Shown here in pieces: positions 12,313-63,496 of a stretch of 64,000 nucleotides of DNA. The translations under genes and the position numbers were made by a program. The DNA is from Escherichia phage vB_EcoS-26175I. The notes under the pieces were generated by a model that was not told the origin of the DNA, did not search any database, and was given only the letters and a program-made list of their open reading frames with translations. The DNA lies in the sequence record NC_133255.1; one strand, written 5' to 3'. How positions within the stretch are numbered: the first letter of the stretch is position 1; each line of letters opens with the position of its first letter.

Positions 12313-12390
12313 TGGTACACCTGCTGAGATTCAAACTCAGGATCTTCCGATTAAGAGTCGGTTGCTTTAAGTCAACTAAGCTACAGATGC
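12313..12390 (-). tRNA. tRNA-Lys (anticodon CTT)
   Basis: T-arm ctgag-attcaaa-ctcag; D-arm gctt/aagc; loop ctCTTaa. Confidence 0.55.
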
Positions 12391-12930
12391 ATTTATATCT
12401 TTATAGGACTTACCAGCCAGTCTTGTATAGCGTTTTCGCAAACCATTATCTGACATGCCCAATTCTCTAGAAGCTCTAGACCATGAGTAATTTTTAACCC
12501 AGTACTCTATTTGTTCTACAGTAATTTCTTGTGGATTTTGACAGTGCTGTTTGCAGTAACTAGCTCTTTTAGCTATTTCTTTGTTGCAAATAGGACAGAA
12601 ATTTTTATCTGAACTTAATCCACGTTCTTCTATAGTTTTGAGAATATGATCAGCTTTACTTCGTACAATCAGATTTTCAAGAGAGAAATTTAGTTTATTT
12701 GTATCATCATGATCTACTTCTAAGTCAGAACTCAAAGATGGTAGATCTTTGTATACTCTCGCTAATACTCTGTGTAATAGAAGATGTTTTGATTTTCCAT
12801 TATGTTGAACAGTAAAGAAAGGATACCCAGAAGTATTAATCTGTATTGAAAGTATACGATTAACTTTAGTACTAAATACTTCCCCAGTCTCACTTATTAA
12901 GTATTCTGGATATTCGGGTATTTCTTTCAT
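12376..12930 (-). CDS. free-standing HNH homing endonuclease
   Basis: 184 aa; HNH-type motif LLLHRVLA...EVDHDDTNKLNFSLENL; embedded in tRNA array. Confidence 0.6.
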   Translation of the reverse strand: MKEIPEYPEYLISETGEVFSTKVNRILSIQINTSGYPFFTVQHNGKSKHLLLHRVLARVYKDLPSLSSDLEVDHDDTNKLNFSLENLIVRSKADHILKTIEERGLSSDKNFCPICNKEIAKRASYCKQHCQNPQEITVEQIEYWVKNYSWSRASRELGMSDNGLRKRYTRLAGKSYKDINASVA

Positions 12931-16106: not shown

Positions 16107-16196
16107 TGGAGGAAGAAGTGGGAATCGAACCCACAAGGCTATGTTTCAAACCGACAGATTAGCAATCTGCTGCAATACCGTTATGCTATTCTTCCT
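16107..16196 (-). tRNA. tRNA-Ser (anticodon GCT), long variable arm
   Basis: 87-nt body, perfect acceptor ggaagaa/ttcttcc, T-arm gtggg-aatcgaa-cccac; loop ttGCTaa. Confidence 0.7.
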
Positions 16197-16705
16197 TAAT
16201 TATTTCGGGCATATTCCCCATGAAGTTTCTCTCTCAGTTGAATTAGAGCTTCATTTGCTGCTTCAGGAGTACTGTGCAGCCCTGCGGAGTATGACTTACC
16301 TTTAAACATTATTCTATCCTGCCACTGACCAGATGCTTTGTGGTAGGATACTCCCTTAAATCCGCTAGTATTCCTAGAAGATTTACTAGCATTATGAGTA
16401 TTAGTGGTACTATCCGCTGCTCTTAAATTTAAAGGATGTATGTTTAACTTATTGCAGTCTTTATGATCAATCATTTCCGGCCTATACCCATAATATAGTA
16501 TAAATACTATGATATGAGCTAAGTAATCTTGGTGATCAACGTTAACTCTGATATACCCAGAGCTTTTGTGCAAAGATCCCGCAGGTTTATTGGCAAACTT
16601 AGTATTAAATATCTTCTCCTCTCTGGAGTTTCCGGAGAGCGGATTCCACACCAGTACACCATCTTCTAAACGGAATCTATAAAGTATAGACTCATAGTCT
16701 AGCAT
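16196..16705 (-). CDS. free-standing HNH homing endonuclease with AP2-like DNA-binding region
   Basis: 169 aa; IDHKDCNKLNIHPLNLRAA (HNH) followed by SGFKGVSYHKASGQWQ. Confidence 0.55.
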   Translation of the reverse strand: MLDYESILYRFRLEDGVLVWNPLSGNSREEKIFNTKFANKPAGSLHKSSGYIRVNVDHQDYLAHIIVFILYYGYRPEMIDHKDCNKLNIHPLNLRAADSTTNTHNASKSSRNTSGFKGVSYHKASGQWQDRIMFKGKSYSAGLHSTPEAANEALIQLREKLHGEYARNN

Positions 16706-29904: not shown

Positions 29905-30431
29905 TAATAAGTCACCAGTTCTTGTACAAAAGATAAACTTTTGTCTGCATTATGCCCTACTGCATAGTCCATCCTAGTTGCTGTTGAATTAGTCATAGTA
30001 ATATGATGGTGAAGATGTACATCAGCAGATAATGGTGTGGCTGAATTAATAGTAGATACATACGCCATATCTAGATGATTATTGACGTACATTTCAAGAA
30101 GCAGAGTTGCTCCTCCTAATACTACAGTTACTTCTTCCTTGAGGAAATCAGGCAGACTGTATCCAATATTACTTATGCGTGTGGCTGATCCTACAGAGTT
30201 AGGTAGTGGTCTATTTGCATAAATAAATAGGTCAGAATCTCCTAGTATTCTTTTTTGCAGAGTCTCAGGGAAGGCTAACCAAGTCCCTGCTCCTACAATA
30301 ATATTATCAGGTGCTAGAGAATCCAAAGTAGCGTAGAAGATATCTAGTTCTTCTTTGAAAGAACCCCAAGGGAGTTTACCGTTGAGGCCGAACTCCCCAT
30401 TCGGCCCAGTTGCATAGATTGCTGCTATCAT
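29904..30431 (-). CDS. dihydrofolate reductase
   Basis: [23 protein letters not shown]-terminus typical of DHFR; 175 aa. Confidence 0.75.
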
Positions 30432-31576
30432 TAGAACATACCCTCAAATTCGTTGCCAAGATCTTTCAGAGTATCAGCAGAGGTTTCTGTGACTTGACCT
30501 ACGCGGTAGGCTGCACCAATCTGAATCTCTTGCGGAGCAGGTTGTAGAGAAGTAGTATCCAACCAGTTCATGATCCACGGAATCGGATTCTTAGTAATTA
30601 CAGGTAAGTGGCTTGGCCATTCTACACCAATGTGCATAAATGCGTTACGTCCTACAAAGTAAAGGTATTCTTCAAGCAGTTCTGCGTTCAAACCAATCAG
30701 ACTACGGCCTTTAAAGATAAAGTGACCCCATTCAATCTCAGTTTTCAGAGTTTTTAGGAGTTGTGCTGGTGCTTTAGCTAATGCTTCATCTACCAGATCT
30801 TTATCAAACTGCTGGAACATAATCTGGATGATAGCTTTAGACATTTGAGTATGTAGAGCTTCATCTTTAGCGATTAATTGCAGGTTCTTAGCAATACCTT
30901 GCAGAATATCGTTCTCTGCTAGAGCAAAGGTACATGCAAAGGATGCGTAGAACTGCATTGCTTCCAGACCGTAGATTGCAAAGTAAGCATCTAACAGCTT
31001 AGCCTGAGTTTCACGTTTAACTTCAGGGAACTCAGTTTCTGGATAAGTATTATCACCACGATGATCACGTACTGCAAGGAAATACTGACCTAACAGATAC
31101 AATTCATCAAACAGTTCAACAGAATCTGCGATACGTGCAAATGCTTCTTGGTTTTTAGTTACAGAATCAATAAATTCTGCTGGATCAGTCAGAACGTTAC
31201 GAATAATGTTACTATATGCACGGCTATGCAGATCTTCGAAGTAGCTCCACTGCTTGAGCATACCCTCCAATTCAGGACGGCTTACAAGCGGCATAATAGC
31301 TGCTTCAGGAGCACGGCTAATGAAAGAATCTGTTTGAGTCTGCCATGCTAAGTTCAGGAGAGTAATTTCCTGAATATCACGCGGGAGGTTTGGCCATTGT
31401 TTCTTATCGGCTTCCAGACTGATTTCAGTTTCAGTCCAGAATTGAGAGCGAGCTAATAACGCCAGCCTTTCTAGCTCTGGATGAGCTACTCGTACATAAT
31501 CTGCAATACCAAGAGAATCACCGAGAAATAGATCTTTATTGGTATGATCCCAGTTTAAGTTAAGTAAAGTTGTCAT
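30431..31576 (-). CDS. nrdB: ribonucleotide reductase class Ia beta subunit
   Basis: 381 aa; size and helical di-iron R2 pattern; adjacent to nrdA. Confidence 0.85.
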   Translation of the reverse strand: MTTLLNLNWDHTNKDLFLGDSLGIADYVRVAHPELERLALLARSQFWTETEISLEADKKQWPNLPRDIQEITLLNLAWQTQTDSFISRAPEAAIMPLVSRPELEGMLKQWSYFEDLHSRAYSNIIRNVLTDPAEFIDSVTKNQEAFARIADSVELFDELYLLGQYFLAVRDHRGDNTYPETEFPEVKRETQAKLLDAYFAIYGLEAMQFYASFACTFALAENDILQGIAKNLQLIAKDEALHTQMSKAIIQIMFQQFDKDLVDEALAKAPAQLLKTLKTEIEWGHFIFKGRSLIGLNAELLEEYLYFVGRNAFMHIGVEWPSHLPVITKNPIPWIMNWLDTTSLQPAPQEIQIGAAYRVGQVTETSADTLKDLGNEFEGMF

Positions 31577-31584
31577 TAGTTCTC

Positions 31585-32100
31585 CTATTTATCTGTGTTT
31601 CTAAGTAGTGTTGGGTCTTTGGTTATAGAGAGGATTAAAGAATCTCGATACTCTATCGCCTCTTCGAGAGTTGGAAGAGTTTTCACGTATTCTTTTCCGT
31701 TAATGGATTTTCTAACTTGAAATCCAGACCCTTTCTTCCGAATATTCTTAGTACCCAATATATTATTTTTACTGGTTTTTCTGTTTTGACTATTTAACTG
31801 CCAGTCTGCTTCTCTTAGATTAGTCCACTTATAGTTTAGTGAATCTCCATCTATATGATCAACCATAACTTTAGGTAAGTTTCCTGTCATGTACAGGAAA
31901 GCAATATTTTGTGCAGGATATTTCTTACCATTGATTTGTATTACTAAGTCTTTTCGGTTAGGATCTACTGAGTGGGGTTTTAAACAACCAGCAGGTAGTC
32001 CTCTTACTTTATTGTGTACTTCTTGGTTATTTAACCAAGTAAATGTTCCTTCATCTGGATTATACTCCAGAATCCTTTTTAATTCATCTTGTGTTATCAA
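31585..32100 (-). CDS. free-standing HNH homing endonuclease (between nrdA and nrdB)
   Basis: 171 aa; VDHIDGDSLNYKWTNLREA HNH motif plus AP2-like GFQVRKSINGKEY. Confidence 0.55.
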   Translation of the reverse strand: MITQDELKRILEYNPDEGTFTWLNNQEVHNKVRGLPAGCLKPHSVDPNRKDLVIQINGKKYPAQNIAFLYMTGNLPKVMVDHIDGDSLNYKWTNLREADWQLNSQNRKTSKNNILGTKNIRKKGSGFQVRKSINGKEYVKTLPTLEEAIEYRDSLILSITKDPTLLRNTDK

Positions 32101-32201: not shown

Positions 32202-34592
32202 TTACAGGTTACAACCGCCTGATGCACAACCTGCTGCTTCTTCACCAGCTCCACCACCATTTTCAGTGTTGAAGTTAGCGTAGTACCAAGTTTTCCAACC
32301 GTACTTAACAGCAGTCATAAAGTCACGAACTACTACTGGGCCAGGAATTACCTCATTCTCAAACTTAGTATAGTCATAGTACATATTCGTACTGATAGAC
32401 TGGCTAAAGAATTTCTGCATAGTTGCTACCCATTTGATCCACTCGATACGATCTACATCATAAGCCAGTTTATAGCTCATTAATGTATCCCAATCGGTTG
32501 CACCTGGAGCAATTGCAATTACTTTATTCACTGCACTACCCTTGATAGATACAATCTTACGAGGTGGTTCAATAGAGTTAGTAACACCTAGCAGTACAGA
32601 GGAACTTTCACCCGGCATCTGAGCAGTCAGAACAGAGTTGCGCATACCATATTTCAGAATATCTGCACGCAGAGATTCCCAATCCATTTCTAGACCTACA
32701 GTTACCAGTTCATCAACAGTTTTCTTGTACGTGTCGATTACCAGAGTTCCTTGCGAAGGCTTAGTACGATTAAACCAGTCACATGCACCTTGTTCTTTAG
32801 CCAGACGTACAGAGGCTTTATGCAGGAAGTAGGACAGCTTTTCAGCTTCACGGTGAATCCAGTTACGAGCTTCAACACCTTCGTAAGCCAAACCTTCTGC
32901 TGCCATTGCGCCTGCTGCGTTCATCAGACCAATACCAACGTTACGACGTTTCTTAGCCGTGTACTCCATAGTTGGGAATGGGTAATCCTGAATCTCGATG
33001 ATTGTATCAACGAATTTCAGAAGAATGTAGCAAGTTTTCTCCCATTCAGCCAGAGATTCCATGCGACCTAGCACAACACCACCTAAGTTACACAGAGATA
33101 CTTCACCAATATCTTCTGGACGCATATCATCTAACTGATCTTGGGTCTTATACAGTTCCGTAATATGGTGGAATGGGCGAGTTGGCTGAGTAATTTCAAC
33201 ACAAAGGTTGGTCATACGAATCGGGTCAAGGAAGTTACCATGACGGTTAGATTCACCAATGTGATGAGCATACATACGCCCTGTTTCCATACGGATACGT
33301 AACCAAGTATCTAGGATTTCTTTTGCAGAGATTCTAGGAGCTGCTGGAATTGTTTTTCCTTCATGGTCGATCTTTGTAAGAGATGCCACACGTTTCTCCG
33401 CTGCCACGTAGATTTCTTCAAACTTAGCCTCATCTTCGCCATAAAACGCTTCATGAACTTCTGGTGCGTAGAAGTAGGACATTAGCGTAATATCTTCGTT
33501 TTTCAGGTAACGTTTTAACAGAAGGTTGTTAAAGCTCAGAGAGTAATCCATCTTATCGATTTTATTCTCGTCTGTAGCACGTTGTTGTTTAACCTGCATC
33601 AACTGAATGATTTCAGGATCGAAGTATGGATAAGACACAGTAGCAGAACCGCCACGGGTTTGCTGAGTGTTAGCTTTTACTGATCGGTCAATGTGTCGAT
33701 AATATGGCAGTTTTCCGGAATGCGGGAATGCCCCATTTCGCACCGGATCAGCAATTGATCGGCTTTCAAGATGATACCCGATTCCCGCTCTGGCTGCGAC
33801 CATTTTGAAGACGATGTGCTCGGCTGTGTCGATTGAATCGAGCGTGTCAGTGGAATCCACGAGGCAGCAACTAGCAAATCCACGGTCACTAGAGCGCAGG
33901 CCAACCAGTGGCGGCGTAGGAACGTTGATTTTGTGGAGTGACATTGCATTGTAGAGGTCGATTGCATCTAGAATTGTCCAGTTAGGTTGAGATAACATCG
34001 CCATTGCCATACCCATGTAGGCAAACTGCGGGGTTTCATAAATTTCACCAGTTGCAATATTACGACGAGAATACTTGTCGAAGAACTGTTTCAGTCCACC
34101 ACTAGTGAATAAACGATCGCGATCATGATCAATAACTTGGTTCAGAGCGTCAAACTGATCATCGCTAATCCATGCACTCATATTTTCCCAAGCGCCAACA
34201 CGAACCATATGATCGTGGAAGAAACGCAGAGAAGGTGGTTCGAAGGAATCATATAGGCGTTTACGCATCTGCGCAAGACGTAATTCCTTCGCTACAGTAT
34301 CATATGCTGGATTGTCTTTGATAAGACCTTCAGCAGCTTTAATTAACACATCTTGGAGTGTATCGGAGTCTACAACACCTTTGGGTAGATTTTTCAGGGC
34401 AGCCATAACTACGGCAGACCAACTTACGTCAGTATCTTTACATGCCCATGCAGCCCAATCATTGAGTTTTTCAGGAGCAAAGTCCTGAACAGTACCGTCA
34501 CGTTTAATTACTTTTTCTATGCGATGGCTCATTTGGCTTTCCTTTTTGTAGTTATCAGGATTTAAATAGTATTCTACTTTATTCTCAGTCAT
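32202..34592 (-). CDS. nrdA: ribonucleotide reductase class Ia alpha subunit
   Basis: 796 aa; ATP-cone N-terminus, C-terminal Cys pair ...GCASGGCNL. Confidence 0.9.
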   Translation of the reverse strand: MTENKVEYYLNPDNYKKESQMSHRIEKVIKRDGTVQDFAPEKLNDWAAWACKDTDVSWSAVVMAALKNLPKGVVDSDTLQDVLIKAAEGLIKDNPAYDTVAKELRLAQMRKRLYDSFEPPSLRFFHDHMVRVGAWENMSAWISDDQFDALNQVIDHDRDRLFTSGGLKQFFDKYSRRNIATGEIYETPQFAYMGMAMAMLSQPNWTILDAIDLYNAMSLHKINVPTPPLVGLRSSDRGFASCCLVDSTDTLDSIDTAEHIVFKMVAARAGIGYHLESRSIADPVRNGAFPHSGKLPYYRHIDRSVKANTQQTRGGSATVSYPYFDPEIIQLMQVKQQRATDENKIDKMDYSLSFNNLLLKRYLKNEDITLMSYFYAPEVHEAFYGEDEAKFEEIYVAAEKRVASLTKIDHEGKTIPAAPRISAKEILDTWLRIRMETGRMYAHHIGESNRHGNFLDPIRMTNLCVEITQPTRPFHHITELYKTQDQLDDMRPEDIGEVSLCNLGGVVLGRMESLAEWEKTCYILLKFVDTIIEIQDYPFPTMEYTAKKRRNVGIGLMNAAGAMAAEGLAYEGVEARNWIHREAEKLSYFLHKASVRLAKEQGACDWFNRTKPSQGTLVIDTYKKTVDELVTVGLEMDWESLRADILKYGMRNSVLTAQMPGESSSVLLGVTNSIEPPRKIVSIKGSAVNKVIAIAPGATDWDTLMSYKLAYDVDRIEWIKWVATMQKFFSQSISTNMYYDYTKFENEVIPGPVVVRDFMTAVKYGWKTWYYANFNTENGGGAGEEAAGCASGGCNL

Positions 34593-57320: not shown

Positions 57321-58086
57321 GTCTTGGGGCGAAACTACTGGCGGTTCTAACGATAAAATCGACTTCCTGAAATTCAACAACGGTGTAACTCGTGTTCGTA
57401 TCGTTTCTGGTGTTCTTCCACGTTATGTATACTGGCTGACTAACAAAGATGGTAATGCAGCTCCGTTTGAGTGCCTGCGTTTCAACCGTACTAAAGAGAG
57501 CTTCGTTCGCGGTAAAGCTGACCCGATTCACGAAATGGGCTTCTTTGAAAAAGAGCTGGATAAAGATGGTAATCGTGTTCCGCTGAAACCGAAGAAAAAT
57601 TACATAGCTTTCGTTATCGACCGTTCCGATAACAAACTGAAAGTTATGGAAGTTAAAGCTACTATCCTGAAAGGCATCCAGTCTATCATGAAGCAGCTTG
57701 AACTGGCAGATCCATTCGATATCGATATTTCTATCGAGAAGAAAGGTAAAGGCTTCGATACTGAGTACGATGTACAGCAGATCGCAGCAATGCAGTTCCA
57801 GATGAAACTGAAAGATCCTACCAGTGCTGAGTCTAAACTGCACGCCGCAGATGCCGATATTCTCGGTGAAGCTATGTGTGATGATACTGGTGAGTTCATC
57901 AAGTTTGAAAAAGTTCCTTCTCTGGAAGAAACCTACCCGGTTCCGTCCTACGAAGAGCAGAAAGAAGCTATTCTCGCCTTCATGGAAGGTCGTGAGAAGC
58001 AAGACGGCGGTGATGCTAAGTCTGGTGGAGATGCTGGTTCTCAGAAAGGCATCGACGCTGAAGCTGCTAGCGATCTGGACGACTAA
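57313..58086 (+). CDS. single-stranded DNA-binding protein-like (acidic C-terminal tail)
   Basis: 257 aa, acidic tail ...DAEAASDLDD; terminator 58094-58120. Confidence 0.45.
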   Translation: MSKSWGETTGGSNDKIDFLKFNNGVTRVRIVSGVLPRYVYWLTNKDGNAAPFECLRFNRTKESFVRGKADPIHEMGFFEKELDKDGNRVPLKPKKNYIAFVIDRSDNKLKVMEVKATILKGIQSIMKQLELADPFDIDISIEKKGKGFDTEYDVQQIAAMQFQMKLKDPTSAESKLHAADADILGEAMCDDTGEFIKFEKVPSLEETYPVPSYEEQKEAILAFMEGREKQDGGDAKSGGDAGSQKGIDAEAASDLDD

Positions 58087-58093
58087 TAAACCA

Positions 58094-58120
58094 AGGGGAG
58101 CTACGGCTCCCTTTCTTTTT
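58094..58120 (+). terminator. rho-independent terminator
   Basis: gggagc-tacg-gctccc followed by tttcttttt. Confidence 0.6.
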
Positions 58121-58125
58121 AACTT

Positions 58126-59103
58126 ATGAGAATACTATTTAGTGCTGATCATCATATCAAATTAGGACAAGATAAAGTTCCAAAGGAATGGCAAAAGCGT
58201 CGCTTCCTGATGCTAGGAGAACGGTTAAATGACATATTCCATAATCATAACTGTGATCTGCATATTGCTGGTGGTGATATTCTTGATGTTGCCGACCCAT
58301 CGTCGGAAGAAATAGAACTTCTTGAACAGTTCATGTCAAGACTTGACCATCCAGGCAAGATCTTCACTGGTAACCATGAAATGTTAACTAAAACTATTTC
58401 ATGTCTATATCATTATGCAGGAGTTATTAATAAAGTAACAAACGGAAATTGGGAAGTCATTACTAAACCATATCGTTCTCCTGAATTTGATATTATCCCT
58501 TATGATGAAATCCACAAACCAAAGTGGAAACCATCTGAATCAAAATTATGTTTCACGCATGTTCGTGGTGAAATCCCCCCACATGTAAAACCAGAGATTG
58601 ATCTAACTAGGTATAACTGTTATGACACTGTAGTTGCTGGCGATTTACATTCTTATACTAATAGTCAAACTGTTGGTTCTACTAGACTTCTTTATCCAGG
58701 ATCTCCATTAACTACATCGTTCCACAGAGAACGCACAAAAGGTACAAATGGTTGTTTTATCATTGATACCGACACATTAAAAGTAGAGTGGATTGAACTT
58801 GGTGACTTACCACAACTGATTCGTAAAACAATCGGAGTTGGTGAGGAAATGGAGCCTAGTGACTATGACCGTGTAATTTATGAAGTCACTGGTGACGTCG
58901 TTCAGTTAAAGTCTATTAAAGATTCCGATCTCTTAGATAAAAAGATTAACCATCGAGTTACTAAAGATGCTAAGCTAAATCTTGTTGATCTTGATATGTT
59001 AGGCGAGCTTGAGCTTTACTTCCGTGAAGTTGAAAAGCTGTCTCAAGGCGACATTGATAGAATCTTGGCTAGAGCTGCTAAATATGTCAAAGATTATAAT
59101 TAA
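58126..59103 (+). CDS. sbcD: SbcD/Mre11-like nuclease
   Basis: phosphoesterase motif MRILFSADHH...GGDILD...GNHE. Confidence 0.75.
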   Translation: MRILFSADHHIKLGQDKVPKEWQKRRFLMLGERLNDIFHNHNCDLHIAGGDILDVADPSSEEIELLEQFMSRLDHPGKIFTGNHEMLTKTISCLYHYAGVINKVTNGNWEVITKPYRSPEFDIIPYDEIHKPKWKPSESKLCFTHVRGEIPPHVKPEIDLTRYNCYDTVVAGDLHSYTNSQTVGSTRLLYPGSPLTTSFHRERTKGTNGCFIIDTDTLKVEWIELGDLPQLIRKTIGVGEEMEPSDYDRVIYEVTGDVVQLKSIKDSDLLDKKINHRVTKDAKLNLVDLDMLGELELYFREVEKLSQGDIDRILARAAKYVKDYN

Positions 59104-60922
59104 GACACTAAAATTCAGCAACGTTATGTCTTACGGTAAGGATATCGTAATTCATTTCGATAAGAATCCAGTTACTCAGTTAATCGGAGGAAACGGTCTA
59201 GGGAAGTCCACTATTGCTACTGTTATTGAGGAATTGTTTTATAACAAGAACTCACGTGGTATCAAGAAAGACGCCTTATTCTCTTGGGGTTCTCCGAAGA
59301 AAGAGTACGATATGCACGCTTACTTCTCGAAAGATGAAGATGAGTATGAGTTGCATAAAGTAGTTAAATCAACTGCTAAGGTTACACTGATTAAGAATGG
59401 AGAAGATATCAGTGGACACACAGCAACCCAAACATATAAGATGATTGAAGAGATTATGGGTGGTGACTTCCAAACATTCACTAAACTGATCTATCAATCT
59501 GTAGGTTCCAATCTAGACTTCCTCAAAGCAACTGATGCGACACGTAAAGCTTTTCTTGTTAATCTGTTTAATCAGGAACAGTATAAAGAGATGTCAGAAA
59601 CTATTAAGGCCGATCGTAAAGAAGTGGCAAGTACATTAAGTAACTTGCAAGGCCAGATGGCCGTAATTACGAAAATTCTTAATGGAAAGAATAACTTGGG
59701 AACCTTACAAGAACCAGTCGAAGTTCCAGAGTTTAATGAAGAACCGTTATCACAAGAACTTACTGAATCGAAAATTAAGGCGGCATTAGCCAAGTCACAA
59801 GAGGCTAATATTACTAAACTCCGTAATTTGGACAAAGCTGTACAAGTTGCCGAACAATCTTTCGAGCCTTTCAAAAATTTCCCTGCGCCCACTGACCAAT
59901 CTGAAGAGATCTCAAGTGTTACGCGTGACCTAACGATTGTTACCTCACGTGCGGGAGAAGTCAAGAAACGTTATCAGAAGTTCAAGCAAGAGGCTTCAAA
60001 TACTGAATGTCCTACTTGTGGTACTCACCTTGATACAACTGCTGCTCAAAAAGCAATGGATATGGCTAGAACAGAGTATGATCCTCTGTTTAAAGAGAAA
60101 CAATCTCTTGAAGATACACTAGAGCAGTTGAAGAAAGAACAAGTCGAGTACACTGCGTATACTAGAGCTAAAGATGCTTTAGATAAGGCAGTAGCAGCTA
60201 GAGACGAGTTCAAAAATTCAATGAGTGATGCTTCTTTCGAAGAACTCAATGTGCAAATCCTACAGGTGCAAATCCGACAATTAGAACAGGAAATCGCTGA
60301 TGGACGTTCTAAAGTTGCAATTGCCAAAGAGCATAATGCAAATGTCGAGTTAGCCAATGCAAAATATAAAGCGAAACTAGAACAGATTGAGAAAGCTGAG
60401 GCAGAAATGTCTGAGATAACATCCAAACTGGATGGAGTATCAGAAGCTGTTGCTGATCTTGATATTCTGATCGCTGCATTGAAAAATCTGGTAGGATATA
60501 AACTAGAGCATAGTGTGAAAGTATTTGAGGAATTGATTAATAAATATCTTTCTATTATGACTGGTGGTAAGTTCGCACTTGGATTTGAGCTTGATGAAAC
60601 TAAATTACAAGTAGTAATCTTCAATGATGGAAACCGTACCAGTATGGAGAACTGCTCTACTGGTCAGCAAAGTAGAATTAACCTAGCAACTCTGTTAGCA
60701 ATTCGAATGCTGTTAACATCTATTAGTAAAGTTAATATTAATCTTCTGTTCCTTGACGAAGTTATTAGCTTTATTGATACGAAAGGACTTGATACTCTCG
60801 TTGAATTATTAAATGAAGAGGATAGTCTGAATTCTATCATTGTTTCTCATGGGCACTCTCACCCGCTGGCCCATAAGATTACAGTTAAAAAAGATGCAGA
60901 AGGATTCTCTTATTTAGAATGA
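59084..60922 (+). CDS. sbcC: SbcC/Rad50-like ATPase
   Basis: Walker A GGNGLGKST, long coiled-coil middle, C-terminal signature/Walker B LLFLDEVISFID. Confidence 0.75.
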   Translation: MSKIIIKTLKFSNVMSYGKDIVIHFDKNPVTQLIGGNGLGKSTIATVIEELFYNKNSRGIKKDALFSWGSPKKEYDMHAYFSKDEDEYELHKVVKSTAKVTLIKNGEDISGHTATQTYKMIEEIMGGDFQTFTKLIYQSVGSNLDFLKATDATRKAFLVNLFNQEQYKEMSETIKADRKEVASTLSNLQGQMAVITKILNGKNNLGTLQEPVEVPEFNEEPLSQELTESKIKAALAKSQEANITKLRNLDKAVQVAEQSFEPFKNFPAPTDQSEEISSVTRDLTIVTSRAGEVKKRYQKFKQEASNTECPTCGTHLDTTAAQKAMDMARTEYDPLFKEKQSLEDTLEQLKKEQVEYTAYTRAKDALDKAVAARDEFKNSMSDASFEELNVQILQVQIRQLEQEIADGRSKVAIAKEHNANVELANAKYKAKLEQIEKAEAEMSEITSKLDGVSEAVADLDILIAALKNLVGYKLEHSVKVFEELINKYLSIMTGGKFALGFELDETKLQVVIFNDGNRTSMENCSTGQQSRINLATLLAIRMLLTSISKVNINLLFLDEVISFIDTKGLDTLVELLNEEDSLNSIIVSHGHSHPLAHKITVKKDAEGFSYLE

Positions 60923-61428
60923 AAAAGCAAGATATAACTGTAGAGTTCCTACAGGATAGGTATGAAATTAGAGACGGTACTCTATTTCATAGAAAATCAG
61001 TAGGATCAGCTAAGAAAGGATCTAGAGTCGGATCCCTGTCTAAAGATGGGTATTATAGAACAAGTATTAAAGGGACAGAATACAGAGTATACGATTTAAT
61101 TTACTTTATGGCCAACGGTACCTGGGCAGACTCAGTGGATCATAAAGATAGAAATAGGCAAAATGATATTCCAGATAACTTACGTAATGCTTCTAAGTCT
61201 CAGCAAGCTCAAAATAGATCTTCTAGGTCTAAGGCTACTAAGTATAAAGGTTTAGATTTCCCTAACGGTAGAGATGGTAAACCCAGGGCTAGAATTAAGA
61301 ACCCTAATACTGGTATTAGAGAAAACTTAGGATCTTTTAATACTCTAGAGGAGGCTGCCAAAGCATATGATATTAAAGCAAAAGAATACTTCGGAGATTT
61401 CGCAGTATTAAATTTCCCAGAGGAATAA
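60919..61428 (+). CDS. free-standing HNH homing endonuclease
   Basis: VDHKDRNRQNDIPDNLR HNH motif plus AP2-like GLDFPNGRDGKPRARI. Confidence 0.55.
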   Translation: MKKQDITVEFLQDRYEIRDGTLFHRKSVGSAKKGSRVGSLSKDGYYRTSIKGTEYRVYDLIYFMANGTWADSVDHKDRNRQNDIPDNLRNASKSQQAQNRSSRSKATKYKGLDFPNGRDGKPRARIKNPNTGIRENLGSFNTLEEAAKAYDIKAKEYFGDFAVLNFPEE

Positions 61429-61910
61429 TGGCCGTAGATAGTAGAGAGAAAGGTAAACGTGGTGAATATCAGGTAAGAGATATACTGCGTGAACGTACAG
61501 GTCTTGAGTGGGAACGTGTTCCAGGCTCTGGTGCTTTTGGCCAGAGCCATGGACTGAAGGGCGACATCTACCTTCCACCACAAAGCGGACGCATTAGTAA
61601 ATACTGCTTCGAAGTTAAGTGGTATAAAGATGATAATATATCAAGTAATTTATTTAACGTTGGTGAATCCACTCTAGAGAAGTGGTGGCAGCAGTGTTCC
61701 CGTGAAGGTGAACAGATGAACTCCAAACCAGCCTTAATATTCAAGAAAGACAGAGGACAGTGGTTAATTGCTTTGGATAGCTCAGACCCGATGGTTGACA
61801 ACTTAATGAGTCGTACCCATATGGTATTAAATAAGAAAGACATAGAAATCGTAATCGGGTTATTCGAACCGTGGTTACATCACGCATCTGTTGAGGACTT
61901 AATTAAATAA
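61428..61910 (+). CDS. PD-(D/E)xK nuclease, Hjc-like Holliday junction resolvase candidate
   Basis: GKRGEYQVRDIL...GSGAFG...GDIY...FEVKW pattern. Confidence 0.45.
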   Translation: MAVDSREKGKRGEYQVRDILRERTGLEWERVPGSGAFGQSHGLKGDIYLPPQSGRISKYCFEVKWYKDDNISSNLFNVGESTLEKWWQQCSREGEQMNSKPALIFKKDRGQWLIALDSSDPMVDNLMSRTHMVLNKKDIEIVIGLFEPWLHHASVEDLIK

Positions 61911-62785
61911 TGAGTAAATCCTGGGGAAAATTTATTGAAGAGGAAGAAGCTGAGCTGGCTTCTCGTCGCAACCTAATGATTGTTGATGGAACTAACTTGG
62001 GCTTCCGCTTCAAACATAATAATAGTAAGAAACCATTCGCTTCAAGTTATGTTTCCACTATTCAGTCTCTAGCAAAATCTTATTCTGCTAGAACTACAAT
62101 AGTTTTAGGAGATAAAGGGAAGTCTGCATTCCGTTTGGAGCATCTTCCTGACTATAAGGGCAACCGTGACGAAAAATATGCTCAACGCACAGAAGAAGAG
62201 AAAGCACTAGACGAACAGTTCTTTGAGTATCTTCGTGATGCTTTCGAGTTGTGTGAAACCACATTCCCAACCTTCACTATTCGTGGTGTAGAAGCAGATG
62301 ATATGGCAGCTTATATTGTTAAGCTCATTGGTCACTTATATGATCACGTTTGGCTAATCTCTACTGATGGTGACTGGGATACTCTATTAACTGATCGAGT
62401 TTCTCGGTTCTCCTTTACCACACGTCGTGAATATCACCTCCGTGATATGTATGAGCATCACAACGTTGATGATGTGGACCAGTTTATCTCTCTGAAAGCA
62501 ATTATGGGAGATCTAGGCGATAACATCCGTGGTGTTGAAGGAATTGGTGCGAAACGTGGTTATAATATTATCCGTGAATTTGGTAATGTTCTGGATATTA
62601 TTGATCAACTCCCTCTGCCTGGGAAACAGAAATATATACAGAATCTGAACGCATCGGAGGAGTTGCTTTTTCGAAATCTGATTCTGGTTGATTTACCGAC
62701 CTATTGTATAGATGCTATTGCTGCTGTGGGTCAAGACGTACTAGATAAGTTTACGAAAGATATTTTGGAGATCGCAGGACAATGA
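61910..62785 (+). CDS. flap endonuclease / 5'-3' exonuclease
   Basis: 291 aa; N-terminal MIVDGTNLGFRF and acidic metal-binding clusters of the FEN/5' nuclease family. Confidence 0.85.
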   Translation: MSKSWGKFIEEEEAELASRRNLMIVDGTNLGFRFKHNNSKKPFASSYVSTIQSLAKSYSARTTIVLGDKGKSAFRLEHLPDYKGNRDEKYAQRTEEEKALDEQFFEYLRDAFELCETTFPTFTIRGVEADDMAAYIVKLIGHLYDHVWLISTDGDWDTLLTDRVSRFSFTTRREYHLRDMYEHHNVDDVDQFISLKAIMGDLGDNIRGVEGIGAKRGYNIIREFGNVLDIIDQLPLPGKQKYIQNLNASEELLFRNLILVDLPTYCIDAIAAVGQDVLDKFTKDILEIAGQ

Positions 62786-63228
62786 TTAAAATTAAACTAA
62801 CTCATCCAGATTGCATGCCAAAGATTGGTTCTAATGATGCCGCAGGTATGGATCTGCGTGCATTCTTTGGTACTAACCTTGCAGCAGATTTACGTGCTAT
62901 TGCACCAGGCAAATCCCTTATGATTGACACCGGTGTCGCGGTGGAAATTCCGCGAGGTTGGTTTGGTTTGGTAGTTCCTCGCAGCTCTTTAGGTAAGCGT
63001 AAACTGATGATCGCAAATACCGTAGGAGTGATCGACTCAGACTACCGTGGTACTATTAAGATGAACCTGTTTAACTACGGTTCTGAGATGCAAACTCTGG
63101 AGAATTTCGAGAGACTTTGTCAGCTAGTGGTACTACCACACTACTCAACCCATCATTTTGAAATCGTTGACGAACTAGAGGAGACTGATCGTGGAGAAGG
63201 CGGCTTTGGAAGCTCAGGAAGTAAGTAA
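62782..63228 (+). CDS. dut: dUTP pyrophosphatase
   Basis: 148 aa; dUTPase motifs AAGMDLRA, GLVVPRSSLG, GVIDSDYRG. Confidence 0.85.
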   Translation: MIKIKLTHPDCMPKIGSNDAAGMDLRAFFGTNLAADLRAIAPGKSLMIDTGVAVEIPRGWFGLVVPRSSLGKRKLMIANTVGVIDSDYRGTIKMNLFNYGSEMQTLENFERLCQLVVLPHYSTHHFEIVDELEETDRGEGGFGSSGSK

Positions 63229-63457
63229 TTTTGCTGACCCTAATATGGTAGGAGTAGACGTAGATCAATCTAACTTTTACAAGATTGATGTTAAATACGT
63301 AGAACCTGAGAAAATAGTACTGAGAGTTGATGTATCTGGTGTAGTAGAACAGTGGGATGAGGAAGGATTTATAGCACTTTGTAGTGAATCCCAAGATCCC
63401 ATGCTTAAAGCTATGTTAGCAGTATATAACTTAGGTATTATTGCAGGTAGTAGATAA
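63191..63457 (+). CDS. hypothetical protein
   Basis: 88 aa ORF overlapping dut end. Confidence 0.3.
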   Translation: MEKAALEAQEVSNFADPNMVGVDVDQSNFYKIDVKYVEPEKIVLRVDVSGVVEQWDEEGFIALCSESQDPMLKAMLAVYNLGIIAGSR

Positions 63458-63461
63458 TAAT

Positions 63462-63496
63462 AAACCCCAGTGGATTATCCACTGGGGTTTTCTTTT
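63462..63496. terminator. bidirectional terminator between converging plus-strand early and minus-strand tail-fibre transcripts
   Basis: ccccagtgg-attat-ccactgggg flanked by A-run upstream and ttttctttt downstream. Confidence 0.6.

What the first reader, a model, noticed from the sequence alone, without database searches (positions are those of the whole stretch)
60919..61428. HNH endonuclease inserted between sbcC-like and Hjc-like resolvase genes
A third HNH/AP2-type ORF interrupts an otherwise tightly coupled recombination/repair operon (sbcD, sbcC, resolvase, FEN), with start and stop overlapping its neighbours. It looks like a mobile insertion into a conserved gene order.
Basis: partly seen in the sequence, partly recalled or inferred. 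Interest (0 to 1): 0.4.

Follow-up and report, generated by a model that had tools for sequence, protein, structure and literature searches.

The report
Homing endonuclease gene in T5-like phage
The ORF is an ordinary but apparently still active selfish "homing endonuclease" gene that sits between two DNA-repair genes in only about 7% of related T5-like phages, has moved between phage genera, and probably targets a short stretch at the end of the neighbouring sbcC/Rad50-like gene.

Summary
Window 60919-61428 (+) is an intact 169-aa ORF. Its ATG overlaps the stop of the SbcC/Rad50-like gene D13 (ATGA), and its TAA overlaps the ATG of the PD-(D/E)XK gene D14 (TAATG). It encodes an I-HmuI-type HNH domain fused to an AP2 DNA-binding domain.

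The window is 100% identical to Escherichia phage vB_EcoS-26175II-V (Epseptimavirus). About 450 T5-like phage records carry this operon:
- 19 records carry this gene.
- 14 records carry a diverged HNH-AP2 gene at the same site.
- The rest have D13 and D14 separated by 3 nt.

The gene tree conflicts with the backbone. The gene is 99.4% identical between genera whose flanks are about 91% identical. All 10 copies compared are intact, with dN/dS of 0.05-0.15.

Across 4.35 kb of flanks, the only sites that separate occupied from empty genomes form a 13-nt cluster in D13, 55-67 nt upstream of the insertion. I read this as the endonuclease's target and immunity site.

This is a typical free-standing homing endonuclease gene, and several GenBank records already annotate it that way. 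Cleavage is untested, and one metal-ligand position is Gln instead of Asn. Interest is low to moderate.

The parts
60919..61428 (+). Free-standing homing endonuclease gene (HEG), 'type A', 169 aa plus stop
   Evidence: The ORF is listed. It matches Pfam HNH_3, PHROG_99, and I-HmuI plus AP2/ERF chains in the PDB. It is present in 19 of ~450 related phage records. All 10 copies compared are intact, with dN/dS 0.05-0.15.
60919..61218 (+). N-terminal I-HmuI-like HNH (His-Me finger) nuclease domain, residues 1-100. The beta-beta-alpha core is strands 72-75 and 88-91 plus helix 93-100. Residues D74, H75, N87 and N99 are conserved. Q96 sits where I-HmuI and most relatives have Asn.
   Evidence: Pfam HNH_3 covers residues 60-97. 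The alignment to 1u3e covers residues 28-124. Conserved columns come, the model's secondary structure, and the Foldseek hit to 1u3e (E=2.7e-4).
61225..61425 (+). C-terminal AP2/ERF-type DNA-binding domain, residues ~103-169 (three-stranded sheet plus helix 143-161)
   Evidence: phmmer matches WRI1 7wq5 at 3.5e-10, ERF096 at 2.7e-5 and ATERF1 at 2e-4. Foldseek matches 1gcc with TMt 0.81, rmsd 1.4 A and 43% identity. Homologues in the protein database carry PF00847 together with PF13392.
60854..60871 (+). Candidate target/immunity patch in the 3' end of D13 (codons H-S-H-P-L-A, just after the H-loop 'VSHG'). Occupied genomes read CAC TCY CAY CCR CTG. Empty genomes read CAT ACG CAT CCA TTA.
   Evidence: Among 950 variable columns in 4.35 kb of flanks, only 60857 and 60859 separate the 13 occupied from the 8 empty genomes perfectly. 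Positions 60856, 60866 and 60868 nearly do. All 24 empty IMG/VR loci except one have ACG/TTR. In GenBank only phage H8 combines an empty site with this haplotype. That this patch is the recognition or cleavage site is inferred, not shown.
60919..60922 (+). Left junction: ATGA, the HEG start overlapping the D13 stop. D13 ends in TGA in all type A genomes and in TAA in all empty genomes.
   Evidence: There is no Shine-Dalgarno sequence within 5-10 nt of the ATG, so translation is probably coupled to termination of D13 (inference).
61420..61430 (+). Right junction: GAGGA (61420-61424), which serves as a Shine-Dalgarno for D14, followed by TAATG, the HEG stop overlapping the D14 start.
   Evidence: Empty genomes have no comparable Shine-Dalgarno upstream of D14.
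61363..61428 (+). Block at the HEG 3' end conserved at the nucleotide level and shared with the diverged type B and C genes at the same site
   Evidence: There are 2 variable sites where ~10 are expected among 10 type A copies (P~0.001). About 50 nt are identical in types A, B and C. No RNA structure and no Rfam family account for it. The cause is unexplained.
59084..60922 (+). D13, the SbcC/Rad50-like ATPase. It is the upstream neighbour and the probable target gene.
   Evidence: Pfam AAA_15, AAA_23 and SbcC_Walker_B. The start follows the annotation of MK907268.
61428..61910 (+). D14, the PD-(D/E)XK endonuclease (annotated elsewhere as a Holliday junction resolvase). It is the downstream neighbour.
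   Evidence: Pfam PDDEXK_15 at 161 bits and PHROG_244.

Best explanation
The ORF is a free-standing homing endonuclease gene of the HNH-AP2 type: an I-HmuI-like His-Me finger nuclease fused to an AP2 DNA-binding domain. It has no promoter of its own and rides in the D12-D13-D14-D15-dut operon of a T5-like phage. It is probably translated by coupling to D13 (ATGA overlap), and its 3' end supplies the ribosome-binding site of D14.

Proposed mechanism (steps 1-2 are inferred; step 3 is what the sequences show):
1. In a cell co-infected by a phage that has the gene and a relative that lacks it, the enzyme recognises the sequence GGGCATACGCATCCATTAGC at the 3' end of the relative's D13 gene, 55-67 nt from the D13/D14 junction, and nicks or cuts there.
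2. The break is repaired by recombination using the gene-carrying genome as template.
3. This copies the gene plus at least ~70 nt of D13 to its left and a variable length of D14 to its right.

The carrier genome would be immune because its own D13 reads CACTCYCAYCCRCTG at that place, which includes a Thr-to-Ser change.
For: - **Domains.** Searches support the HNH and AP2 assignments.
- **Presence/absence at a precise site.** 19 records have type A and 14 have types B or C, out of ~450; the rest are empty with a 3-nt spacer.
- **Horizontal movement.** The HEG in the window is 99.4% identical to those of Tequintavirus SP3 and JLBYU43, whose flanks are 90-91% identical. It is only 91.4% identical to that of Epseptimavirus 1-23, whose flanks are 96.7% identical.
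- **Left-hand co-conversion.** From -67 to the junction, the D13 haplotype follows the HEG sub-lineage. Upstream of about -90 it follows the genus (SP3, LmqsSP1).
- **Right-hand co-conversion.** 5 of 13 occupied genomes carry diverged D14 5' tracts of different lengths. None of the 8 empty genomes does.
- **Target/immunity cluster.** Five associated differences fall within 13 nt, two of them perfectly associated. Besides them, only the D13 stop codon at the junction itself (TGA in type A, TAA in all empty genomes; position -2) shows an association of that strength among the other variable columns of the 4.35 kb. The pattern is replicated in IMG/VR and GenBank with a single exception, phage H8.
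- **Functional gene.** All 10 copies are intact, with dN/dS 0.05-0.15.
- **A full homing cycle is visible.** There are sensitive empty sites, occupied sites, a decaying copy (in-frame TGA in Kenya-K36) and one resistant empty site (H8).
- **Not intron-borne.** There is no Rfam match.
- **No internal promoter or terminator.** The operon is bounded by terminators at 58093-58114 and 63462-63490.
- **Literature frame.** Free-standing HEGs in T4 sit in intergenic regions as promoter-less cassettes, cut a neighbouring conserved gene and co-convert flanks (PMC2988022). HNH-AP2 is a recognised HEG architecture (PMC10448857; PMC5714182, group 2).
Against: - No cleavage assay exists for this protein or any close relative that I could find.
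- Residue 96, which aligns with Asn96 of I-HmuI and is Asn in most relatives (motif SQNxxN), is Gln in all ten type A copies. From memory, not verified here, that Asn is a metal ligand in I-HmuI. Catalysis could therefore be weakened or lost.
- The D13 cluster could be a hitch-hiking remnant of the ancestral donor rather than the recognition site. The occupied panel has 13 genomes but only about 8 independent combinations of backbone and haplotype.
- Ordinary homologous recombination between co-infecting phages could spread the gene without any nuclease activity.
Confidence: 0.8

Rival explanations
1. The gene is a former homing endonuclease that no longer cuts (Gln at the helix metal-ligand position). 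It would be kept as a sequence-specific DNA-binding or regulatory protein, or simply because its 3' end now provides the ribosome-binding site and translational coupling for D14. Its patchy distribution would then reflect ordinary recombination and loss.
For: Q96 replaces the Asn found in I-HmuI and most relatives in all type A copies. Purifying selection is strong. The GAGGA that serves D14 lies inside the ORF, and the last 66 nt are conserved at the nucleotide level.
Against: D74, H75, N87 and N99 are all conserved, and Gln keeps the amide group. Near-identical copies sit in backbones that differ by ~9%. The tight linkage to a 13-nt cluster of substitutions in D13 is what nuclease-driven conversion and self-immunity predict, and it is not expected for a regulator. 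D14 is expressed without this ORF in more than 90% of relatives.
Confidence: 0.15
2. The ORF is ancestral to T5-like phages and has been deleted in most lineages. On this view it is a loss polymorphism, not an insertion.
For: Synonymous divergence among type A sub-lineages (dS 0.18-0.54) is as large as that of the flanking genes between genera, so the gene is old in this group. Three diverged lineages occupy the same site.
Against: About 410 empty genomes share exactly the same junction (TAA AAC ATG; one has TAA AC ATG), which independent deletions would not give. HEG and backbone trees conflict. Flank haplotypes travel with the HEG. An old age is compatible with recurrent homing cycles.
Confidence: 0.05
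3. The enzyme cuts at or next to the D13/D14 junction itself, not at the 60854-60871 patch. Immunity would then come simply from disruption of the site by the insertion, as with intron-encoded enzymes, and the D13 cluster would be a linked passenger.
For: The shortest co-conversion tracts still span -67 to the junction, so the cut could lie anywhere in that interval. I-HmuI-type enzymes cut within a few nt of their insertion site (from memory, not checked here).
Against: The resistant-type cluster is retained in every occupied genome even though recombination breakpoints fall only 20-30 nt upstream of it. It comprises 5 changes in 13 nt, including a two-step codon change that alters the protein. 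This is hard to explain without selection on that sequence. Phage H8 keeps the cluster with an intact empty junction.
Confidence: 0.2

Closest known systems
I-HmuI (Bacillus phage SPO1; PDB 1u3e) and the Pfam HNH_3 / His-Me finger 'group 2' homing endonucleases
   Same: The N-terminal domain aligns over residues 28-124 (E=5.6e-5), and Foldseek gives E=2.7e-4. D74-H75, N87 and N99 are conserved. The layout is modular, nuclease followed by a DNA-binding domain (PMC5714182).
   Different: I-HmuI is encoded in a group I intron and uses a C-terminal helix-turn-helix region. This gene is free-standing and uses an AP2 domain. Position 96 is Gln rather than Asn.
HNH-AP2 homing endonucleases (Magnani et al. 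2004, as cited in PMC10448857 and PMC5714182; 'IPA-HNH' HEGs of ICP1-like phages)
   Same: The architecture is the same, an N-terminal HNH and a C-terminal AP2 domain, and these genes are also found in phages.
   Different: The ICP1 'IPA-HNH' domains are reported as too diverged for the Pfam HNH_3 profile (PMC10448857). This protein passes the HNH_3 threshold. No member with a mapped target is close in sequence.
T4 free-standing HNH endonucleases (mobA, mobE) and seg genes: 'intronless homing'
   Same: It is an intergenic, promoter-less cassette inside a conserved operon. Its target is apparently in the neighbouring conserved DNA-metabolism gene, and flanking markers are co-converted (PMC2988022). 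Different HEGs replace each other at one locus, as SegH and Hef replace mobC and mobE (cited in PMC2988022).
   Different: The Mob proteins carry a different C-terminal region (a zinc finger according to PMC10448857). The inferred target here lies only ~55-67 nt from the insertion, closer than the hundreds to thousands of bp quoted for T4 free-standing enzymes.
[quoted passage not shown] 2004, cited in PMC5714182)
   Same: They are HNH-type site-specific endonucleases encoded by the same phage family.
   Different: From memory, they lie in the tRNA gene region. F-TflIV is placed in a different His-Me finger group (group 1) in PMC5714182. I made no sequence comparison here.

Membership tests
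HNH_3 / I-HmuI-like His-Me finger nucleases | Profile match above the curated threshold | tested here: met
   PF13392 scores 30.1 bits against a cut-off of 24.8, E=3.6e-7, residues 60-97. PHROG_99 matches at 9e-44.
HNH_3 / I-HmuI-like His-Me finger nucleases | Beta-beta-alpha fold with the catalytic His at the end of strand 1 and a structural Asn in strand 2 | tested here: met
   The model has strands 72-75 and 88-91 and helix 93-100. D74 and N87 are invariant and H75 is conserved in at least 90% of 19 homologues. Foldseek hits 1u3e.
HNH_3 / I-HmuI-like His-Me finger nucleases | Metal-binding Asn/His on the helix (position aligned with I-HmuI N96) | tested here: inconclusive
   All 10 type A copies have Gln96. 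Most relatives have Asn there, and N99 is invariant. The ligand role of N96 is recalled from memory, not verified.
HNH_3 / I-HmuI-like His-Me finger nucleases | Mg2+/Mn2+-dependent nicking or cleavage of DNA | not testable with these tools
   This needs an enzyme assay.
AP2/ERF DNA-binding domain | Profile match above Pfam's threshold | tested here: not met
   PF00847 scores 13.7 bits against a cut-off of 33.3, and only residues 136-158 match.
AP2/ERF DNA-binding domain | Three-stranded sheet packed on a C-terminal helix, with sequence similarity to solved AP2 domains | tested here: met
   phmmer matches 7wq5 at 3.5e-10, 5wx9 at 2.7e-5 and 1gcc at 2e-4. Foldseek matches 1gcc with TMt 0.81, rmsd 1.4 A and 43% identity. 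Homologues carry PF00847.
Free-standing homing endonuclease gene (intronless homing) | Intergenic ORF, present or absent at one precise site among close relatives | tested here: met
   19 type A and 14 type B/C records out of ~450. The empty sites are uniform.
Free-standing homing endonuclease gene (intronless homing) | Not inside an intron or intein | tested here: met
   The ORFs are separate and overlap only at start and stop codons. There is no Rfam family at E<=1.
Free-standing homing endonuclease gene (intronless homing) | Horizontal spread with co-conversion of flanking sequence | tested here: met
   HEG identity and flank identity are incongruent. The haplotype of the last ~70 nt of D13 follows the HEG sub-lineage across genera.
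Free-standing homing endonuclease gene (intronless homing) | Cleaves the HEG-less allele, while the carrier allele is resistant | tested here: inconclusive
   A 13-nt cluster of substitutions in D13 is perfectly or nearly perfectly linked to occupancy. Cleavage itself cannot be tested here.
Free-standing homing endonuclease gene (intronless homing) | Super-Mendelian inheritance in mixed infection | not testable with these tools
   This needs phage crosses.

The most novel reading that the evidence does not exclude
The D13/D14 site may hold an exchangeable cassette. Three HNH-AP2 lineages with ~47% amino-acid identity share one immunity haplotype in D13 and a nucleotide-identical 3' block of ~50-66 nt. 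That block would act as a fixed adaptor, providing the D14 ribosome-binding site and a crossover point, so that nuclease bodies can be swapped at one site while operon expression and self-immunity are preserved. The type A enzyme, with Gln at a metal-ligand position, could be a variant with altered catalysis, for example nicking only or a changed metal preference.
Probability: 0.15. Interest if true: 0.45.

Novelty: new member of a known kind. Interest (0 to 1): 0.25.

Why it matters
In itself the finding matters little. Free-standing HNH homing endonuclease genes are common in T5-like phages, and this ORF is already labelled '(putative) HNH homing endonuclease' in several GenBank records.

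Its value is practical. The comparison gives a concrete, testable target: D13 codons H-T-H-P-L, sequence GGGCATACGCATCCATTAGC. It also identifies a ready experimental pair in the BASEL collection on E. coli K-12: HildyBeyeler/Bas33 carries the gene, and GreteKellenberger/Bas26 is empty with the sensitive haplotype.

This would be a simple system for studying HNH-AP2 enzymes, a class with no well-characterised phage member. It could also show how homing endonucleases shape recombination boundaries and marker exclusion in therapeutic T5-like phages.

Tried and rejected
- **Automatic alignment of occupied and empty alleles.** MAFFT misplaced the left flank, so I replaced it with anchored extraction.
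- **Group I intron or other RNA element around the ORF.** There is no Rfam match at E<=1.
- **RNA structure in the conserved 3' block.** The z-score is +1.05, no better than shuffles.
- **Own promoter or terminator.** The promoter scan gives no more matches than shuffles (19 against 17.9) and none is convincing near the ORF. The one terminator-like hit inside the ORF is on the minus strand and weak.
- **Foreign base composition.** The ORF has 36.1% GC, against 37-42% for its neighbours and 39.9% for the window. This is not distinctive.
- **NCBIfam.** No family matched the ORF or D14.
- **Literature check of the I-HmuI metal ligand.** The search for 'I-HmuI' with 'Asn96' found no paper, so that point rests on memory.
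- **Hjc-like identity of D14 by sequence.** Only a non-significant hit to a Holliday junction resolvase was found (E=0.63).
- **HNH as a terminase-associated factor.** Rejected because the gene lies in the early DNA-metabolism operon and is absent from more than 90% of relatives.
- **Antisense ORF 61209-61583 (-), 124 aa.** I did not pursue it. It overlaps two well-supported genes on the plus strand.
Full report
**What is there.** Window 60919-61428 (+) is an intact ORF of 169 codons. Its ATG overlaps the TGA of the upstream gene (ATGA, 60919-60922). Its TAA overlaps the ATG of the downstream gene (TAATG, 61426-61430). The region 58000-63300 is 100% identical to Escherichia phages vB_EcoS-26175II-V (MK907268-71), which belong to the genus Epseptimavirus of the Demerecviridae, the T5-like phages. 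The gene order is:
- D12, an SbcD-like metallophosphatase;
- D13, an SbcC/Rad50-like ATPase (59084-60922);
- this ORF;
- D14, a PD-(D/E)XK endonuclease (Pfam PDDEXK_15, 161 bits);
- D15, the flap endonuclease;
- dUTPase.

Terminator-like hairpins lie at 58093-58114 and 63462-63490, and none lies on the plus strand in between until within the dUTPase gene at the far end of the operon. Promoter-like matches are no more frequent than in shuffled sequence. The ORF is therefore a promoter-less passenger of this operon.

**What the protein is.** The N-terminal ~100 residues pass Pfam's HNH_3 threshold (30.1 against 24.8 bits). They match PHROG_99 'HNH endonuclease' (9e-44) and align with the intron-encoded homing endonuclease I-HmuI (1u3e, E=5.6e-5). 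Residues ~103-169 match plant AP2/ERF DNA-binding domains in the PDB (WRI1 at 3.5e-10, ERF096 at 2.7e-5), although the Pfam AP2 profile is below threshold.

An AlphaFold model built on 19 homologues (mean pLDDT 86.7) shows a beta-beta-alpha core (strands 72-75 and 88-91, helix 93-100) and a separate sheet-plus-helix domain. The latter superposes on AtERF1 with TM 0.81 and rmsd 1.4 A. I-HmuI is also recovered.

HNH-AP2 is a recognised homing-endonuclease architecture (PMC5714182 group 2; PMC10448857, citing Magnani et al. 2004). D74, N87 and N99 are invariant and H75 nearly so among the homologues.

One irregularity remains. The position aligned with I-HmuI Asn96, which is Asn in most relatives (SQNxxN), is Gln in all ten type A copies. 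From memory, that Asn is a metal ligand in I-HmuI. I could not verify this, so the catalytic competence of this protein is not certain.

**Presence and absence.** Of 450 phage records that carry the operon, 19 carry this ORF at 90.6-100% nucleotide identity. These are 13 GenBank genomes plus 6 RefSeq duplicates. A further 14 records carry a 163-codon HNH-AP2 gene at the same site that is only ~47% identical in protein. I call these type B (phA11, Kenya-K36 and others) and type C (Shivani, SHSML-45 and others). All other genomes examined have D13 TAA, a 3-nt spacer (2 nt in SP01) and the D14 ATG. An independent scan of IMG/VR gave 25 empty and 2 occupied loci.

**Evidence for movement.** The ten type A copies fall into four sub-lineages that cut across phage genera. 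The copy in the window is 99.4% identical to those in the tequintaviruses SP3 and JLBYU43, whose flanks are 90-91% identical to the window. It is only 91.4% identical to the copy in the epseptimavirus 1-23, whose flanks are 96.7% identical.

The variable sites of the flanks show why.
- **Left flank.** From about 67 nt upstream of the D13 stop to the junction, the haplotype follows the ORF sub-lineage. In SP3 and LmqsSP1 the sequence upstream of about -90 reverts to the tequintavirus type.
- **Right flank.** 5 of 13 occupied genomes carry a strongly diverged D14 5' segment of variable length (up to +45 to +280). None of the 8 empty genomes has it. The window itself switches to the local backbone right at the end of the ORF.

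These are the co-conversion tracts expected from double-strand-break repair during homing (PMC2988022).

**Evidence for function.** All ten copies are full length. Pairwise dN/dS between sub-lineages is 0.05-0.15, close to the values for D13 and D14. By contrast, the type B copy of Kenya-K36/K42 has an in-frame TGA. A metagenomic protein (P0002) combines a type A N-terminus with a type C-like body. Decay and recombination between the lineages therefore both occur.

**Probable target.** I compared 13 occupied genomes (types A, B and C) with 8 empty genomes over 2.6 kb to the left and 1.75 kb to the right, which contain 950 variable columns.
- Only two columns separate the groups perfectly: window 60857 and 60859.
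- Three more nearby nearly do: 60856, 60866 and 60868.
- The only other column with P<0.001 is the D13 stop codon itself.

All five lie within 13 nt of D13, just after the H-loop 'VSHG'. Empty genomes read CAT ACG CAT CCA TTA (H-T-H-P-L). Occupied genomes read CAC TCY CAY CCR CTG (H-S-H-P-L).

Polymorphisms closer to the insertion (-44 to -11) are not associated. In IMG/VR, 24 of 25 empty loci have ACG/TTR. In GenBank, a query built from the exception shows that phage H8 (AC171169) is the only record with an empty junction plus the 'occupied-type' cluster. About 400 empty records differ from it by the expected 7-8 mismatches.

My reading is that the cluster marks the recognition and/or cleavage site, and that carrier genomes are immune through these substitutions. 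H8 would then be either a genome that lost the gene or a naturally resistant lineage.

This is inference. The shortest conversion tracts only place the cut somewhere between about -90 and the junction, and a linked-passenger explanation is not excluded. Types A, B and C are all linked to the same kind of D13 haplotype, which suggests they compete for one target.

**Integration into the operon.** There is no Shine-Dalgarno sequence at the right distance from the ORF's ATG. The ATGA overlap suggests translation by termination-reinitiation after D13. The ORF's last codons contain GAGGA (61420-61424), 3 nt before the D14 ATG. Empty genomes have nothing comparable there.

The last 66 nt of the ORF are unusually invariant: 2 variable sites where ~10 are expected (P~0.001). 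About 50 nt are identical in types A, B and C. I found no RNA structure, Rfam family or promoter that explains this. Recent gene conversion, or use of this block as the crossover point when nuclease bodies are exchanged, is possible but untested.

**Verdict.** This is a free-standing HNH-AP2 homing endonuclease gene inserted between D13 and D14. It is polymorphic in the population, has been horizontally exchanged with its immediate flanks, and is under purifying selection.

It is a new (uncharacterised) member of a well-known kind. Several GenBank records already call it an HNH homing endonuclease, and the Shivani record notes the HNH and AP2/ERF domains. The added value here is the candidate target site and a straightforward experimental test. 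Confidence that it is a mobile homing endonuclease gene is about 0.85. Confidence that the 60854-60871 patch is the target/immunity determinant is about 0.55.

Noticed in passing
window 31585-32100 (-): Another HNH_3 ORF (171 aa) lies between the ribonucleotide reductase large-subunit gene (32202-34592) and small-subunit gene (30431-31576). This is the same intergenic position as mobE in phage T4 (PMC2988022 Table 1).
   Followed up: partly
window 16196-16705 (-) and 12376-12930 (-): Two further HNH_3 ORFs are present. One has an AP2 domain and is a paralogue of the finding (~25% identity). The other has a NUMOD4 motif. The window therefore holds four HNH_3 genes.
   Followed up: partly
L029 1452-1580 (Escherichia phage H8, AC171169.12): This is the only empty D13/D14 junction found that carries the 'occupied-type' D13 haplotype CAC TCC CAT CCG CTG. 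It is a candidate post-loss or naturally resistant allele.
   Followed up: partly
L005 2584-3075 (Salmonella phage Kenya-K36; same in Kenya-K42): The type B HNH-AP2 gene at the same site has an in-frame TGA (TGG to TGA) near its 5' end. The record annotates a shortened CDS, so this looks like a decaying copy.
   Followed up: partly
window 61363-61428: The last ~66 nt of the ORF are nearly invariant at synonymous sites. About 50 nt are identical in the ~47%-identical type B and C genes. Apart from the D14 Shine-Dalgarno in the last ~10 nt, this is unexplained.
   Followed up: partly
L008 3510-3790, L003 3075-3275, L004 3081-3280, L011 3510-3555 (D14 5' ends): Five occupied genomes carry a strongly diverged 5' segment of D14, of variable length, that is absent from all 8 empty genomes compared. 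It probably represents right-hand co-conversion tracts from an unsampled donor lineage.
   Followed up: no
protein P0002 (metagenome, labelled Spirochaetia bacterium MAG): This 163-aa protein has the type A N-terminus (MKKQDITI) on a type C-like body, so it is a recombinant between HEG lineages. The taxonomic label is probably a binning artefact of phage DNA.
   Followed up: no
window 58093-58114 and 63462-63490: Strong hairpin terminators bracket the D12-dut operon. The second has 13 pairs and reads as a terminator on both strands, facing the convergent tail-fibre gene.
   Followed up: no
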